DNA of 61,406 bases from a virus (taxonomy: Duplodnaviria; Caudoviricetes). Position numbers and translations under genes: made by a program. Where the stretch lies: positions 1-61,406 of the IMG/VR virus record IMGVR_UViG_3300032323_001121. One strand, written 5' to 3'. The notes under the pieces are model-generated. The model had not been told where the DNA came from. It searched no databases and was given only the letters and a program-made list of their open reading frames with translations. Of the stretch, positions 38,027-45,360 are shown one piece after another; position 1 is the first letter of the stretch; each line of letters begins with the position of its first letter.

Positions 38027-38100
38027 GCTCGTTTAGCAATCTGTTTGAATGCAGCGTTCTCATAAAGCGCCGAAGGTGGGTTAGATTCCCACAACGAGCA
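38027..38100 (+). tRNA. tRNA-Met/Ile2(CAT)
   Basis: Acceptor GCTCGTT/AACGAGC; loop CTCATAA. Confidence 0.8.
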
Positions 38101-38225
38101 CTCGCCGTGGTTCAAAACTTTAGATGAGAGCAGTGGGGCACTTATCAAAAAGGTTTGATTTAGATTCACAACCACACGGCACACTTGACTATTGTGATTT
38201 TTTGAGTTATGATAGTCTTATACAA

Positions 38226-38507
38226 GCGAGTATGGTGGAATCGGTAGACACACCAGACTTATGAAAATTGAGCCTCATTTAGGAAACTTTATGAGTGTAA
38301 TTCCTCAAATTCGGTGAAACCTGTAAAATGGCAATACCGAGCCAAGCATCGCAAGATGAAGGTGTAGAGACTAGACGGGGAACATCTAAACCAAAAGGTA
38401 TGATGAAGGTATAGTCCAGACCACAAACCGAAAGGGTAGTGAAAACTATAGTGGTAAGAAAATCTGTTGGGCGTATGCCCGTGGGAGTTCAAGTCTCCCT
38501 ACTCGCA
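38226..38507 (+). tRNA. trnL: tRNA-Leu(TAA) interrupted by a group I intron (exons 38226-38260, 38459-38507)
   Basis: Joined exons give CCAGA-CTTAAAA-TCTG anticodon arm, a long variable arm and acceptor GCGAGTA/TACTCGC. Confidence 0.9.
38261..38458 (+). ncRNA. Group I intron, trnL(UAA)-type, no ORF
   Basis: AATTGAGCC..GGAAAC..TCAAATTC.G.GAAACC, GGCAATAC.GAGCCAA, GTAGAGACT, ATAGTCC core; follows U34 and ends in G. Confidence 0.88.
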
Positions 38508-38528
38508 TTATATAATAAAAAAAGTTAT

Positions 38529-39368
38529 ATGAAACAGTTCCCATTAAAGACGGCCTTAAGATATCCTGGAGGCAAGAGCAAAGCACTCAAAACACTTGCT
38601 CCTTGGTTTCCAAGTGATTTCAAAGAGTTTCGTGAACCCTTCTTGGGTGGTGGAAGTATTTCTTTAATGGTTTCGCAGAACTACCCAAAAGTTCCTATCT
38701 GGGTAAACGACAAGTATTATTACTTGTATAACTTTTGGGTTCAACTTCGTGATAATGGACAAGTTCTCAAAGATAAATTAAGAGCAATCAAAGAAAAAGT
38801 TCTTAATGACGACAACGCACACCAAGAACTCTTTAATGATTACTCTCATACGATTGGTAATCTTGAACCATTAGAACAAGCAGTTGCGTTCTTTGTGATG
38901 AATAAGTGTTCTTATTCTGGTCTTACAGAGAACTCAACATTTTCAGTTCAAGCATCACGTTCTAACTTCTCGTTAGTTGGTATTGATAAACTTCCACGAT
39001 ATTCTTATATCATCAAAGACTGGAAGATTACTAATATTGATTATGAGGAAGTAATGAACGCAGAGGGTGATGGTGTGTTTGTATTTCTTGACCCACCTTA
39101 TGATATTAAGGATTTCCTTTATGGAACTGGTAGAAAACTTCACTCATCATTCTCTCACGAAAGATTTGCTGATGATGTGGATAAATGCCCTCATCGTTTT
39201 ATGATTACTTACAATCTTAATGATTGGATATTAAGTCGTTATAAAGAGTATAATATAGATGAATGGAAGTTGAGGTATTCTATGGTTCATCGTGGTGAGA
39301 AAGGAACACAAGATAATGTGAAAACCGAATTGCTGATTACGAATTATAAACTTGATACAGTTTTATAA
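38529..39368 (+). CDS. dam: DNA adenine methyltransferase (Dam/D12 class)
   Basis: LRYPGGKS, EPFLGGGS, FLDPPY, FMITYN, ELLITNY. Confidence 0.9.
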   Translation: MKQFPLKTALRYPGGKSKALKTLAPWFPSDFKEFREPFLGGGSISLMVSQNYPKVPIWVNDKYYYLYNFWVQLRDNGQVLKDKLRAIKEKVLNDDNAHQELFNDYSHTIGNLEPLEQAVAFFVMNKCSYSGLTENSTFSVQASRSNFSLVGIDKLPRYSYIIKDWKITNIDYEEVMNAEGDGVFVFLDPPYDIKDFLYGTGRKLHSSFSHERFADDVDKCPHRFMITYNLNDWILSRYKEYNIDEWKLRYSMVHRGEKGTQDNVKTELLITNYKLDTVL

Positions 39369-39394: not shown

Positions 39395-40138
39395 ATGAAT
39401 TATAGGGACTTACAAAACATTTCAAATCTCTCTCAAGAAATTTTAATTGAGGGAGCAAAGGAAGAGCACAACGTGCTGAACCGTTGGCCTTATACTTCTC
39501 CTTATCTTCAAGAATCAACTGAAGTTGAAGAAGGATATAAAGACCTTGGTGATAAAGCAAGAGATAAGGGACATCAATTATTAAATAAATCAAAAAAAAC
39601 TGCTACTCGTGGAAATATGTATGCTGGAACACTCCCCAGCAATACTCCCGAAGGTGAAAATTTAAAACAAAGAGCAAGTCAGCAATTTGCTGTTAGTGCG
39701 TTTCACAATCCAGAAAAGGCACAAGCAAAGGCAGCAGCAAACAAAGCAAAAGGTGAGAATAGGAAAAAGGCGTTTGGAAATAGGTTAATGAGAAGTGATG
39801 GGCAAGGTATTCGTGATAGTTATGAGTATGACCTCTACGACATCATTCTTTCACACCTTCTTGATGAAGGATATGCTGAAACACAAGAACAAGCAGAAGT
39901 CATTATGGTGAATATGAGTGAGGGTTGGAGAGAGAGTATTATGGAAGGTGAAGAAGATTATAAACCACTTCCAAGAAGAAAAATGCTCAATAAATCAAAT
40001 AAACTTCGTAAGTCTGGTGATGTTAATAAAAAGGCTAGATCTGCTGATATTGAACATCAGTTAAGAGCACATTCTCCAGAAGCTTCTAAAACATCAAGTT
40101 ATGTGAATAGAGCATATGGTCGTGGTAGCGACAATTGA
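39395..40138 (+). CDS. Late protein with YDLYDIILSHLLDEGYA motif
   Basis: Paralogous segment with 36168..36755. Confidence 0.6.
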   Translation: MNYRDLQNISNLSQEILIEGAKEEHNVLNRWPYTSPYLQESTEVEEGYKDLGDKARDKGHQLLNKSKKTATRGNMYAGTLPSNTPEGENLKQRASQQFAVSAFHNPEKAQAKAAANKAKGENRKKAFGNRLMRSDGQGIRDSYEYDLYDIILSHLLDEGYAETQEQAEVIMVNMSEGWRESIMEGEEDYKPLPRRKMLNKSNKLRKSGDVNKKARSADIEHQLRAHSPEASKTSSYVNRAYGRGSDN

Positions 40139-40209
40139 TACCACTTCCCAAACTGACACAAGACCCCTCCAAGGGGTCTTTTTTATGATATAGTGTTTAT
40201 ACATAACAT

Positions 40210-40238
40210 TTGACAAAACTCTAAAAAACTGGTATATA
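40210..40238 (+). promoter_or_regulatory. Sigma70-type promoter of the tRNA-array leader
   Basis: TTGACA-17 nt-TATATA. Confidence 0.6.
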
Positions 40239-40259
40239 TAATATACACAAGAACAAACA

Positions 40260-40358
40260 ATGACTAATCTCCATTCACAACCAAAGAGTGATTATCCGAT
40301 GAACCGCTGGTTTATTGGAGAGACCCTCTTGGTTGCGAATATGATAAGTCAAAGTTAA
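40260..40358 (+). CDS. Putative attenuator leader peptide MTNLHSQPKSDYPMNRWFIGETLLVANMISQS
   Basis: 32 codons, 19 different amino acids; overlaps alternative RNA helices. Confidence 0.65.
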   Translation: MTNLHSQPKSDYPMNRWFIGETLLVANMISQS

Positions 40359-40381
40359 AAGACAAATCATAAAAAGCAACG

Positions 40382-40417
40382 AAGAGGGAGAATCCAAAAG
40401 ATTCCCCCTCTTTTTTT
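40382..40417 (+). terminator. Intrinsic terminator (attenuator 3:4 helix)
   Basis: GAGGGAGAATC-CAAAA-GATTCCCCCTC followed by T7. Confidence 0.8.
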
Positions 40418-40487
40418 ATGGTCTTGTGCCACTTGTGCTACTGGCACACTCAAAGAGCACGGACCTCAAAACGTGGTATTCTTAAAG

Positions 40488-40526
40488 GGTGGTTGAGAGA
40501 CCACCAGCACCTTGACAACTGAATAA
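40488..40526 (+). promoter_or_regulatory. boxB-like hairpin plus boxA-like antitermination signal
   Basis: GGTGGTT-GAGA-GACCACC followed by GCACCTTGACAACTGAATA. Confidence 0.55.
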
Positions 40527-40541
40527 TTACCATATTTTATT

Positions 40542-40614
40542 GGGTCGTTGGCAGATCGGTTTTATGCACCCGGCTTTTAACCGGTAGAGAGAGGTTCAAC
40601 TCCTCTACGACCCA
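40542..40614 (+). tRNA. tRNA-Lys(TTT)
   Basis: Cloverleaf, loop CTTTTAA. Confidence 0.9.
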
Positions 40615-40652
40615 TTGACCGCCGTAGTTCGGTCATTAAACATAAACTATTC

Positions 40653-40735
40653 GGGTAGGTGTCCGAGTGGTTGAAGGAGGGAGACTGTAAATCTCTTGGT
40701 TCTGTCCATCGTTGGTTCGAATCCAACCCTACCCA
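40653..40735 (+). tRNA. tRNA-Tyr(GTA)
   Basis: Loop CTGTAAA, long variable arm. Confidence 0.9.
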
Positions 40736-40739
40736 CCTT

Positions 40740-40811
40740 GACTCTATAATGAAGTGGTTATCATACTTCTCTGTCTAAGAAGAATCACGAGTTCGAATCT
40801 CGTTAGAGTCG
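40740..40811 (+). tRNA. tRNA-Asp(GTC)
   Basis: Loop CTGTCTA. Confidence 0.88.
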
Positions 40812-40815
40812 TCGT

Positions 40816-40887
40816 GTTCCTGTCGTCTAATGGTTAGGACGATGCCCTTTCAAGGCATAAACGAGGGTTCAAATCCCTTCAGGAATA
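40816..40887 (+). tRNA. tRNA-Glu(TTC)
   Basis: Loop CTTTCAA. Confidence 0.88.
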
Positions 40888-45080: not shown

Positions 45081-45118
45081 TACTTGACTTATAAAACTCT
45101 TTATGCTACTATATAAAG

Positions 45119-45360
45119 AGTTCAAGAGGATAAACCTCTATATTCCAACACATCGGGGCAGTACCGATTATCTCCATTTCAAGGGGATAAAATAGAATCG
45201 ACTGGGATGTATGTATTATCTGTTGACGGAACAAACAAACAAACGCAAACAACATTGTTGCTTTCTCTCGTCAAACAGTTTCTGTTTGAACTAAACGAGT
45301 GAGGGGGTTATAAGTTTCCTTCTTACCCAAAACTTACAAGGAGGTGTAATGCCTCCTATT
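45119..45360 (+). ncRNA. ssrA: Circularly permuted (two-piece) tmRNA; tag ANNIVAFSRQTVSV*
   Basis: Acceptor piece ends ATCGG-GGCAGTA-CCGAT-TATCTCCA (45176); coding piece starts GGGGATA (45183) with G3:U70; TGGGATGTA/TATATTCCA helix; tag 45245-45289; promoter 45084-45112; terminator ~45339-45364. Confidence 0.88.

What the first reader, a model, noticed from the sequence alone, without database searches (positions are those of the whole stretch)
40210..40417. Pan-amino-acid leader-peptide attenuator in front of the phage tRNA array
Seen: a sigma70 promoter (40210-40238), then an unannotated 32-codon ORF (40260-40358, MTNLHSQPKSDYPMNRWFIGETLLVANMISQS) containing 19 of 20 amino acids (only Cys is absent). 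Its codons are spread across isoacceptors in the array (ACT, CTC, TTG, TCA, AGT, CGC, ATT, ATA). Mutually exclusive helices are present: 1:2 = 40273-40288 with 40326-40340; 2:3 antiterminator = CCCTCTTGGTTGC (40324-40336) with GCAACGAAGAGGG (40376-40388), 12 of 13 pairs; 3:4 terminator = 40384-40410 plus T7. The tRNA array starts 125 nt downstream. Known: this is trp/his attenuator geometry, but those leaders are enriched in one amino acid. Inference: a ribosome stalling on almost any depleted or cleaved tRNA would mask segment 1 and allow read-through, so the phage would induce its tRNA set on demand, e.g. under starvation or host anticodon-nuclease defence. Caveat: a second promoter-like cassette (40426-40482) lies downstream of the terminator.
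Basis: partly seen in the sequence, partly recalled or inferred. Interest (0 to 1): 0.93.

Follow-up and report, generated by a model that had tools for sequence, protein, structure and literature searches.

The report
Leader-peptide attenuator before cyanophage tRNA array
A tiny conserved gene wrapped in a switchable RNA fold with a transcription stop signal sits just in front of the tRNA gene cluster of T4-like cyanophages, and probably lets the phage adjust its tRNA output to how fast ribosomes are translating.

Summary
Window 40210-40417 holds a promoter-like site, a 32-codon ORF (19 kinds of residue), a long hairpin over the ORF, an intrinsic terminator, and a 12-of-13 alternative pairing between the ORF and the terminator's 5' arm. 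No shuffle reached that pairing (0 of 2000).

I found the same unit in 102 loci falling into five sequence clades. These include the cultured phages S-PM2, where it is unannotated, and S-CREM1, where it is a "hypothetical protein". Wherever enough downstream DNA is held (93 loci), a tRNA follows 113-286 nt behind; it is tRNA-Lys(UUU) in 91.

The ORF stays open and in frame, with pN/pS 0.32-0.55 within clades. Both mutually exclusive pairings co-evolve: in 68 of 68 distinct elements the ORF's 3' half pairs better with its own terminator region than with any from another clade. Four of nine antiterminator pairs show changes on both sides.

Contigs from four metatranscriptome studies begin at 40254-40269 and run across the terminator.

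I read it as a ribosome-dependent attenuator of the tRNA array (confidence about 0.55). The "pan-amino-acid" part is only partly supported. Residue diversity is 15-20 kinds across clades, only codons about 5-17 can signal, and a promoter-like box follows the terminator. No wet-lab evidence exists.

The parts
40160..40186 (+). Intrinsic terminator of the upstream gene (39395-40138). It insulates the leader unit from upstream transcription.
   Evidence: Terminator-like site 40160-40180 with a T run behind it.
40210..40242 (+). Promoter-like site P1: TTGACA 40210-15, 17-nt spacer, TATATA 40233-38 (or TATAAT 40237-42). Most relatives carry TATAAATA, a T4-type late-promoter box, at the aligned place.
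   Evidence: Sequence and alignments. The scan did not list it. RNA-library contigs start 40254-40269 with no cover over 40000-40253.
40260..40358 (+). Leader ORF of 32 codons plus TAA: MTNLHSQPKSDYPMNRWFIGETLLVANMISQS.
   Evidence: The ORF is kept in 102 loci. The only ORF indel is 3 nt, while 1-2-nt indels occur in the 3' UTR. pN/pS is 0.32-0.55 within clades.
40273..40288 (+). Segment 1, the 5' arm of hairpin H1. It pairs with segment 2.
   Evidence: MFE fold. Pair counts 91-98% paired per helix. Own versus other-clade energy -34.0 versus -17.1 kcal/mol.
40295..40319 (+). Central hairpin inside the ORF (11 pairs, GCU loop), a possible pause hairpin.
   Evidence: The G.U to C-G double change at columns 55:73 splits 22 versus 16 sequences. 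A hairpin sits at the same place in S-PM2 and S-CREM1.
40324..40336 (+). Segment 2 (CCCTCTTGGTTGC). It pairs either with segment 1 or with segment 3.
40340..40371 (+). Inner hairpin of the alternative fold (40340-45 with 40366-71; 40348-50 with 40361-63). It spans the stop codon.
   Evidence: Fold of 40324-40388. ATGAT/ATCAT versus ATGGT/ACCAT covary in the alignment: A-U 12, G-C 23, G-U 3, A.C 0, counted by eye.
40376..40388 (+). Segment 3 (GCAACGAAGAGGG). Its 3' part is the terminator's 5' arm.
   Evidence: 99.8% of cells are paired with segment 2 in 38 distinct sequences.
40382..40417 (+). Intrinsic terminator (3:4): stem 40382-94/40400-12, loop CAAAA, T7 at 40411-17.
   Evidence: 94.7% of cells paired. 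The scan tool calls the S-PM2 counterpart a terminator.
40474..40482 (+). TGGTATTCT, an extended -10-like box (possible second promoter P2).
   Evidence: Conserved as TGGTATATT in relatives and in S-PM2. In S-CREM1 the scan calls TTGCAA-17-TATGAT with TG. Function not shown.
40488..40520 (+). Hairpin (40488-40505) plus the conserved junction motif CCAGCACCTTGACAACT (40504-40520).
   Evidence: The motif was found in 93 loci, 60 of them with a tRNA (59 Lys) just behind it. Function unknown.
40541..40615 (+). tRNA-Lys(UUU), the first gene of the array. The window holds 25 tRNA genes in all; 23 lie from here to 45080 and are followed by a tmRNA.

Best explanation
The stretch is the 5' leader of the phage's tRNA operon and works as a ribosome-dependent transcription attenuator.

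Proposed mechanism:
1. Transcription starts at P1, about 40245-40254. A ribosome loads on the 32-codon ORF while RNA polymerase moves on.
2. If no ribosome is present, segment 1 pairs with segment 2 (hairpin H1), the terminator 3:4 forms, and transcription stops at 40417.
3. If the ribosome runs quickly through the ORF, it covers segment 2 or sits at the stop codon. The terminator again forms.
4. If the ribosome is still within about codons 5-17 when segment 3 emerges, segment 1 is masked. Segment 2 then pairs with segment 3, the terminator's 5' arm is held, and polymerase reads on into tRNA-Lys and the array.

The signalling codons are of many different kinds with no run of one amino acid. 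The leader would therefore report overall decoding speed, meaning the supply of many charged tRNAs, rather than one amino acid. That would give feedback of tRNA supply on tRNA synthesis.

Shown here: the sequence anatomy, its conservation, the co-evolution of both alternative pairings, the open frame, the fixed position before the array, and RNA-library contigs that cross the terminator.

Inferred: translation of the ORF, stalling as the signal, and the benefit to the phage.
For: Anatomy and chance controls
- Fold z = -8.06.
- 2:3 duplex -22.5 kcal/mol, reached by 0 of 2000 shuffles.
- With a ribosome footprint, codons 5-17 give the antiterminator; codons 1-4 and 18-33 give the terminator.

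The family
- 102 loci carry the ORF.
- 93 of those hold enough downstream DNA, and all 93 have a tRNA 113-286 nt behind (tRNA-Lys(UUU) in 91). The other 9 are cut short by a contig end.
- 59 loci were fetched by ORF patterns alone.
- Conversely, of 60 loci fetched by a motif next to tRNA-Lys, 59 hold the whole ORF and one a truncated copy.
- The unit is present in S-PM2 and S-CREM1 with the same fold architecture, z = -5.4 and -4.4.

Co-evolution of the pairings
- ORF 3' half with its own 3' UTR plus terminator arm: -30.5 kcal/mol, against -18.7 with partners from other clades. The own partner is best in 68 of 68 distinct elements.
- 1:2 pairing: -34.0 against -17.1 kcal/mol, own partner best in 61 of 68.
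- Nine-pair antiterminator core across clades: 92.2% of cells paired against 81.3% in shuffles (0 of 500 reach it). Four pairs change on both sides, and 45 cells carry double changes against 16.9 +/- 5 in shuffles.
- Leu-to-Pro codon changes in segment 2 go with A-to-G changes in the terminator arm.

Coding signals
- ATG is invariant and the frame is open in all copies.
- The only ORF indel is one whole codon, while the 3' UTR has 1-2-nt indels.
- pN/pS within clades is 0.32, 0.39 and 0.55.
- The missing Shine-Dalgarno sequence is normal for this phage: only 6 of 44 long ORFs have one.

RNA evidence
- In 4 of 4 metatranscriptome runs laid, from 4 studies, contigs start at 40254, 40257, 40258 and 40269.
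- Each contig crosses 40410-40420 and continues 69-290 nt further.
- 40000-40253 has no cover.
Against: - No direct evidence of translation, stalling or regulated read-through exists.
- Contigs cannot show levels or true ends, and depth is low (3-10).
- The stall region has no run or enrichment of any amino acid, which is the defining signal of known attenuators. Single hungry codons give weak signals in those systems (my recollection).
- At equilibrium with the whole terminator present, the antiterminator wins over 5 or more codons in only 38 of 68 elements: 33 of 42 in clade AB, 5 of 17 in C, 0 of 7 in D, and 0 in each of the single elements of E and C2. The switch would therefore have to be kinetic.
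- In nascent RNA cut before the 3' arm, the 2:3 pairing is the minimum-energy state even without a ribosome in 54 of 68 elements. Folding alone therefore does not prove that a ribosome is needed.
- A conserved promoter-like box lies between the terminator and tRNA-Lys. The array may not depend on read-through.
- pN/pS below 1 and a conserved D-[CY]...W-[FHY]-[IMV]...[TS]-[LP]-L core could mean that the peptide itself has a function.
Confidence: 0.55

Rival explanations
1. A stand-alone small gene. The 32-34-residue peptide is the functional product. The hairpin with its T run simply ends this gene's transcript, and the tRNA array is driven by its own promoter just downstream. The RNA folds serve mRNA stability or translational control.
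For: - pN/pS is 0.32-0.55 and a peptide core is conserved across clades.
- S-CREM1 annotates the ORF as a CDS.
- A promoter-like box follows the terminator in all clades by eye, and the scan tool calls one in S-CREM1.
- Small ORFs between phage tRNA genes are common (recalled, no call).
Against: - It gives no reason for a co-evolving pairing between the coding region and the terminator's 5' arm. Amino acids there change (Leu/Pro) to follow the terminator arm.
- Linkage to tRNA-Lys is strict.
- RNA-library contigs cross the terminator.
- No family matches in Pfam or PHROGs.
Confidence: 0.2
2. An attenuator whose signal is a sequence-specific nascent-peptide arrest, as in TnaC or SecM. It would respond to a ligand or factor rather than to general tRNA supply.
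For: - A D-[CY]-x(1-4)-W-[FHY]-[IMV] core is kept across clades whose DNA has diverged.
- All the structural evidence for an attenuator applies equally here.
Against: - The conserved core is also the conserved central RNA hairpin, so RNA constraints may explain it.
- Two clade D members lack the Trp at that place (RED/RQD).
- With this motif in the exit tunnel the ribosome would lie over segment 2, which favours termination (inference).
Confidence: 0.1
3. A non-coding structured RNA: an sRNA, or a processing or stability element of the tRNA precursor. The open frame would be incidental.
For: - Folds are very stable (z = -8.1, -5.4, -4.4).
- The start codon is partly paired in H1.
- The RNA turned up in 16 RNA-library runs.
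Against: - The frame is open, with the same start and 32-34 codons, in five clades with diverged DNA.
- Indels are in frame only inside the ORF.
- Synonymous change exceeds non-synonymous change.
- No Rfam family matches the leader at E <= 1.
Confidence: 0.08

Closest known systems
Leader-peptide transcription attenuators of amino-acid operons (trp, his, leu, phe, thr, ilvGMEDA of enterobacteria)
   Same: A short ORF after the promoter; four segments with 1:2, 2:3 and 3:4 pairings; and an intrinsic terminator before the regulated genes. The logic is the same: no translation or fast translation gives termination, and a ribosome held early gives read-through.
   Different: - The regulated genes are tRNAs (and perhaps a tmRNA), not enzymes.
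- The leader has no run of any regulatory codon: 11 kinds of residue in 13 signalling codons.
- The ORF runs through segment 2 and stops 17 nt before segment 3, whereas the trp leader stops between segments 1 and 2 (recalled).
- It is phage-borne, and most relatives have a T4-type late-promoter box.
Multivalent attenuators (thr: Thr+Ile; ilvGMEDA: Ile+Leu+Val) and the pheST leader (pheM), recalled from the literature
   Same: They sense more than one amino acid, or control a component of the translation machinery through a leader peptide.
   Different: They still rely on clustered codons for two or three amino acids. Here the signal would be spread over many single codons, and the product is tRNA itself.
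T-box riboswitches
   Same: Leader RNAs with terminator/antiterminator switching that report tRNA status.
   Different: T-boxes bind uncharged tRNA directly and have no ORF. No Rfam T-box match (or any other family) at E <= 1 in the leader.
Attenuator-derived dual-function products (rnTrpL / peTrpL of Sinorhizobium; abstracts seen: PMC6614838, PMC7298713)
   Same: A terminated attenuator RNA and its leader peptide can have functions of their own. That would fit the peptide conservation seen here.
   Different: No trans function is known or tested for this element.

Membership tests
Ribosome-dependent (leader-peptide) transcription attenuator | A short ORF in the leader, between the promoter and the regulated genes | tested here: met
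   ORF 40260-40358. It is kept in 102 loci and five clades, in frame, with pN/pS 0.32-0.55.
Ribosome-dependent (leader-peptide) transcription attenuator | An intrinsic terminator downstream of the ORF and upstream of the regulated genes | tested here: met
   Hairpin 40382-40412 plus T7. The tool calls the S-PM2 counterpart a terminator. T runs are shorter in S-CREM1 and part of clade D.
Ribosome-dependent (leader-peptide) transcription attenuator | An antiterminator pairing (2:3) that excludes the terminator and is maintained in evolution | tested here: met
   0 of 2000 shuffles reach it. 99.8% of cells are paired within the clade. Across clades 92.2% are paired and 4 of 9 pairs change on both sides. 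The own partner is best in 68 of 68 elements.
Ribosome-dependent (leader-peptide) transcription attenuator | An anti-antiterminator pairing (1:2) that lies within reach of the translating ribosome | tested here: met
   H1 fold. Own versus other-clade energy -34.0 versus -17.1 kcal/mol. Footprint model.
Ribosome-dependent (leader-peptide) transcription attenuator | Clustered codons of the regulating amino acid in the stall region | tested here: not met
   No runs. Residue kinds are 15-20 per 32-34 residues, and there are 11 kinds in the 13 signalling codons.
Ribosome-dependent (leader-peptide) transcription attenuator | Read-through transcripts join the leader to the regulated genes | tested here: inconclusive
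   Contigs from 4 RNA libraries start at 40254-40269 and cross the terminator, one reaching 40546. Contigs show neither levels nor single molecules.
Ribosome-dependent (leader-peptide) transcription attenuator | Read-through responds to the supply of charged tRNA or to translation of the leader | not testable with these tools
   Needs reporter, Term-seq or Ribo-seq work in an infected host.
T-box riboswitch | Match to the T-box covariance model (Stem I, specifier loop, T-box bulge) | tested here: not met
   No Rfam match at E <= 1 in window 40140-40540, or in the S-PM2 and S-CREM1 leaders.
Known protein families (Pfam-A, PHROGs) | Profile match of the peptide | tested here: not met
   0 families at E <= 1. 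The search of 1.84 billion representatives found only 2 close relatives.

The most novel reading that the evidence does not exclude
The leader is a general decoding-speed sensor built from many different single codons. Some variants carry all 20 amino acids in 33 residues. A shortage of almost any charged tRNA would hold the ribosome early in the leader and switch on the phage's own tRNA array and tmRNA. Such a shortage could come from mismatched host codon usage, starvation or host tRNA nucleases. Once supply is restored, fast translation would switch the array off again. This would be homeostatic feedback of tRNA supply on tRNA gene transcription, a mode of control not described for any tRNA operon in the four literature searches I ran.
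Probability: 0.3. Interest if true: 0.92.

Novelty: new variant of a known kind. Interest (0 to 1): 0.8.

Why it matters
How phages control their tRNA genes is largely unknown, although phage tRNAs are now discussed as codon supplements and as a counter to host tRNA-cleaving defences (abstract of PMC10264068, seen).

A conserved leader-peptide attenuator in front of the array would be the first case I could find of this classic mechanism governing RNA genes of the translation machinery. It would also be the first leader without a dedicated regulatory amino acid.

The element is present in S-PM2 and S-CREM1, which can be grown. The idea is therefore directly testable. It would also correct annotations: the ORF is unannotated in S-PM2, where a minus-strand CDS is drawn across it.

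Tried and rejected
Searches that found nothing
- Megablast and blastn of the region against cultured phages gave no match.
- tblastn of the peptide gave no match.
- blastn of the S-PM2 leader found only S-PM2 itself, in 3 records. The cultured homologues came instead from the tRNA array match followed by reading upstream.
- A codon-degenerate pattern for the central 11 codons found only the same 9 viral contigs.
- Rfam gave nothing in the leader. A weak YrlA-like hit over the S-PM2 junction plus tRNA-Lys (23.3 bits against a threshold of 69) was rejected as caused by the tRNA part.

Weak or inconclusive tests
- Variable columns by codon position within the window's clade were 11, 7 and 16 for positions 1, 2 and 3. 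This is only a mild third-position excess, so I relied on pN/pS and indel phase.
- Equilibrium folding with the full terminator does not show a switch in clades D, E and C2.
- Folding of nascent RNA gives 2:3 even without a ribosome. Neither model settles the kinetics.
- The terminator arm taken alone is only weakly clade-specific: the own partner is at least as good as all others in 6 of 68.
- The region 40418-40540 is not significantly structured as a whole (z = -1.83). I considered a tRNA-like pseudogene there and dropped the idea, since neither ARAGORN nor Rfam calls one.
- In the lay of reads, the short pieces over the tRNA genes (40658-40857) are 88-95% alike and come from other organisms' tRNAs. 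I drew nothing from them.

Rows dropped
- Two spurious ORFs picked by my regular expression (in L103 and L112) were dropped before the 68-element counts.
- The script chose a wrong ORF for L060 and L084. One search shows the family ORF in both.

Tools and material not available
- Supplementary files of papers were not consulted.
- Literature: four full-text searches and passages of PMC3037559 mention no such leader. Subscription-only papers, such as the S-PM2 genome paper, were not visible.
Full report
**1. What the window is**

The window is a 61.4-kb IMG/VR virus record, estimated about 30% complete. All long ORFs but three lie on the plus strand. The protein upstream of the finding matches only Synechococcus phages (8 records). 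The tRNA array is most like those of Synechococcus phages S-CREM1 and S-PM2, family Kyanoviridae. A two-piece cyanobacterial-type tmRNA follows the array. This is therefore a T4-like cyanophage, probably from fresh water: the RNA runs that hold the stretch are labelled freshwater or lake.

**2. Check of the observation**

- ORF 40260-40358 encodes the quoted 32 residues, with 19 kinds and no Cys.
- TTGACA (40210-15) and TATATA (40233-38) are 17 nt apart. The consensus scan did not list the site.
- The RNA 40245-40420 folds to -57.6 kcal/mol, z = -8.06. A terminator hairpin and T7 follow.
- The alternative 2:3 helix (12 of 13 pairs, -22.5 kcal/mol) was reached by none of 2000 dinucleotide shuffles. 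One of 971 other windows of the contig reached it, at -40.6. I take that one (not checked) to be the element's own reverse complement, since only the plus strand around the element was excluded.
- Nineteen kinds of residue in 32 lies in the top 1% of random ORFs and the top 0.4% of real 32-mers from this contig.
- tRNA-Lys starts 123 nt behind the T run.

**3. Footprint model**

I treated everything up to 14 nt beyond the A-site codon as unavailable.
- The minimum-energy fold holds the terminator's 5' arm in the 2:3 helix when the A site is at codons 5-17.
- It forms the terminator at codons 1-4 and 18-33.
- Allowing RNA behind the ribosome to pair narrows the window to codons 5-10.

**4. Relatives**

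- An exact 23-mer from the central hairpin found 9 viral contigs.
- A codon-degenerate pattern for the C-terminus found 18 viral contigs and 41 metagenome contigs.
- All of these encode the ORF. They give 19 distinct peptides and 38 distinct DNA versions.
- A search of 1.84 billion protein representatives found just two clusters, of 32 and 33 residues.
- The tRNA array match then led to S-CREM1 and S-PM2.
  - In S-CREM1 a 99-nt "hypothetical protein" (SCREM1_59) lies 127 nt before tRNA-Lys.
  - In S-PM2 an unannotated 34-codon ORF lies in the same place, under a minus-strand CDS.
- A 17-nt motif next to tRNA-Lys, shared by the window and both phages, fetched 79 loci. Sixty loci in all have a tRNA directly behind the motif, and in 59 of them it is tRNA-Lys. 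Fifty-nine of the 60 hold the whole ORF plus hairpin, and one holds a copy cut by the contig end.
- Altogether 102 loci carry the ORF.
  - 91 have tRNA-Lys(UUU) as the next tRNA, 113-286 nt behind.
  - 2 have another tRNA call.
  - 9 end too soon to tell.
- After two spurious ORFs were removed, the distinct elements number 68 in five clades: AB 42, C 17, D 7, E 1 and C2 1.

**5. Is the ORF a real reading frame?**

- The ATG is invariant, and the frame is open for 32-34 codons in all clades although the DNA has diverged.
- Within the window's clade the only indel in the ORF is one whole codon. The 53-nt 3' UTR has several 1-2-nt indels.
- pN/pS is 0.32 (AB), 0.39 (C) and 0.55 (D) within clades, and 0.5-0.8 between clades.
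- The mild third-position excess (11/7/16 variable columns) is not significant on its own.
- The lack of a Shine-Dalgarno sequence is normal here: 6 of 44 long ORFs have one. Other clades carry AGGT or GAGG 7-12 nt before the ATG.

I conclude that the ORF is very probably translated. This remains an inference.

**6. Do the alternative pairings evolve together?**

Within the window's clade:
- H1 plus the terminator is 93.3% paired, with double changes at columns 22:101 and 55:73.
- The 2:3 helix is 99.8% paired. Six of its 12 pairs vary on one side, and all but one cell keep a wobble pair.
- Column 101 (A/G) also covaries with the ATCAT/ACCAT partner of the alternative fold: A-U 12, G-C 23, G-U 3, A.C 0 (counted by eye). 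One base thus tracks two mutually exclusive partners.

Across clades:
- The ORF's 3' half pairs with its own 3' UTR plus terminator arm at -30.5 +/- 2.1 kcal/mol, against -18.7 +/- 3.2 with partners from other clades. The own partner is best in 68 of 68.
- The same test for 1:2 gives -34.0 against -17.1 kcal/mol, own partner best in 61 of 68.
- The terminator arm alone is less clade-specific, at -13.1 against -10.1 kcal/mol, because all arms are G-rich.
- The aligned nine-pair core is 92.2% paired against 81.3% in shuffles and 47-70% when slid. Four pairs change on both sides: 6:74 CG15/UA15, 8:72 CG22/UA10, 10:70 CG20/UA10, 13:67 UA14/GU9.
- In words: CCCUCUU/AAGAGGG in the window's clade becomes CUCCCCU/AGGGGAG in clade C, CCCCCC/GGGGGG in clades D and E, and UCCCUCC/GGAGGGA in S-PM2. 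The encoded residues change (Leu-Leu, Pro-Leu, Pro-Val) to follow the terminator.
- These are few independent events (about three to four lineages), so the shuffle counts overstate significance. The direction is nonetheless uniform.
- S-PM2 and S-CREM1 fold into the same H1-plus-terminator architecture (z = -5.4 and -4.4).

A pairing between a coding segment and the 5' arm of the following terminator has no obvious use except to prevent that terminator from forming.

**7. RNA evidence**

Sixteen runs on record as RNA hold part of the stretch. I laid four of them, from four studies.
- In each, one contig begins at 40254, 40257, 40258 or 40269, at the contig's first base.
- Each contig crosses the terminator and continues 69-290 nt. 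One reaches 40546, just inside tRNA-Lys.
- Nothing covers 40000-40253.

This fits a start a few bases downstream of P1 and at least some read-through, and it argues against DNA carry-over. Contigs cannot give levels, strands or true ends, and depth is 3-10, so this is a weak hint.

**8. What is sensed?**

- There is no run of any codon.
- Residue kinds per peptide are 18-20 (AB, mean 19.2), 17-19 (C, mean 18.3), 15-19 (D, mean 17.3), 17 (E) and 17 (C2).
- Shuffles of each ORF's own bases give 15.5-16.0 +/- 1.4. The chance of reaching the observed value is 0.0035 (AB), 0.0175 (C), 0.29 (C2), 0.23 (E) and 0.86 (S-PM2) for the clade representatives.
- Ten of the 42 distinct peptides listed contain all 20 amino acids in 33 residues.
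- Variants that lose Arg, Cys, Tyr or Phe occur freely. By my reading, singly occurring residues vary as often as the others.

High diversity is therefore a tendency of the family, not a maintained rule. My best reading is a sensor of overall decoding speed over about 13-18 varied codons. "Pan-amino-acid by design" is possible but unproven.

**9. Points against**

- At equilibrium the terminator beats the antiterminator in most elements of clades C, D and E.
- In nascent RNA the 2:3 pairing forms even without a ribosome.

The real behaviour must therefore be kinetic. As I recall, it is kinetic in the trp leader too, where 3:4 is the more stable helix.

- An extended -10-like box (TGGTATTCT at 40474-82; TGGTATATT in relatives and S-PM2) follows the terminator. 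In S-CREM1 the tool calls TTGCAA-17-TATGAT, with its -35 inside the terminator loop. The array may thus have a basal promoter, with the attenuator adding a regulated input from P1.
- In most relatives P1 is a TATAAATA box. That box is enriched in this window: 15 copies against 4.8 expected, 13 of them on the plus strand.
- The conserved peptide core could mean an arrest peptide or a trans-acting peptide.

**10. Comparison and novelty**

The unit works like the trp/his class of attenuators. It meets four structural criteria of that class but fails the regulatory-codon criterion, and the functional criteria are untested. It is not a T-box, and it matches no Rfam, Pfam or PHROGs family.

Four full-text searches and one paper's passages gave no description of such a leader before phage tRNA genes. 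Subscription journals and supplements were not visible.

I class it as a new variant of a known kind.
- Interest: 0.8.
- Confidence in the attenuator reading: 0.55.
- Confidence in the general tRNA-supply sensor reading: 0.3.

Noticed in passing
window 45103-45355: A two-piece (permuted) cyanobacterial-type tmRNA lies directly behind tRNA-Ala at the end of the array (Rfam RF01851, 83 bits). ARAGORN calls permuted tmRNAs with tags such as ANNIVAFSRQTALV in 6 of 9 relatives scanned (L018, L019, L020, L022, L023, L024...). It did not call one in the window itself.
   Followed up: partly
window 38251-38440: A group I intron match (RF00028, 63.5 bits against a threshold of 50) lies between tRNA-Met (38027-38101) and the start of ORF 38439-39368. 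It is unclear which gene it interrupts, if any.
   Followed up: no
window 40488-40520; L077:1413-1462; L078:1426-1466: A hairpin of variable sequence is followed by the strictly conserved single-stranded motif CCAGCACCTTGA[AC]AA[CT]T, 10-22 nt before tRNA-Lys. It occurs in 60 loci including S-PM2 and S-CREM1. It is too close to the tRNA to be its promoter. It may be a processing or binding site.
   Followed up: partly
window 40418-40482 and relatives (L018-L035): The spacer between the terminator and the junction motif is built from one or two related modules, each with a TGGTAT(A/T)(T/C)T box followed by a hairpin. The window has one module and many relatives have two, so the spacer length varies: the terminator end lies 85-181 nt from the motif.
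   Followed up: partly
window, whole: TATAAATA occurs 15 times against 4.8 +/- 2.3 expected, 13 times on the coding strand and often just before ORFs (e.g. 39364, 42181). This indicates T4-type late promoters.
   Followed up: partly
L078:1010-1366 (S-PM2, LN828717.1) and L077:1247-1345 (S-CREM1): The S-PM2 record annotates a 118-residue minus-strand CDS (S-PM2d160) across a tRNA-Arg and the leader, and leaves the plus-strand 34-codon ORF unannotated. S-CREM1 annotates its copy as a hypothetical protein.
   Followed up: yes
proteins P0002-P0007: The 90%-identity cluster of the 33-residue peptide lists a 288-residue protein (P0005) whose sequence looks unrelated, as a member. This is probably a clustering artefact.
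   Followed up: no
L062 (metagenome contig): In one variant the stop codon upstream of the leader ORF is missing. The frame then runs on from an upstream ORF to give a 91-residue product ending in the leader peptide.
   Followed up: no
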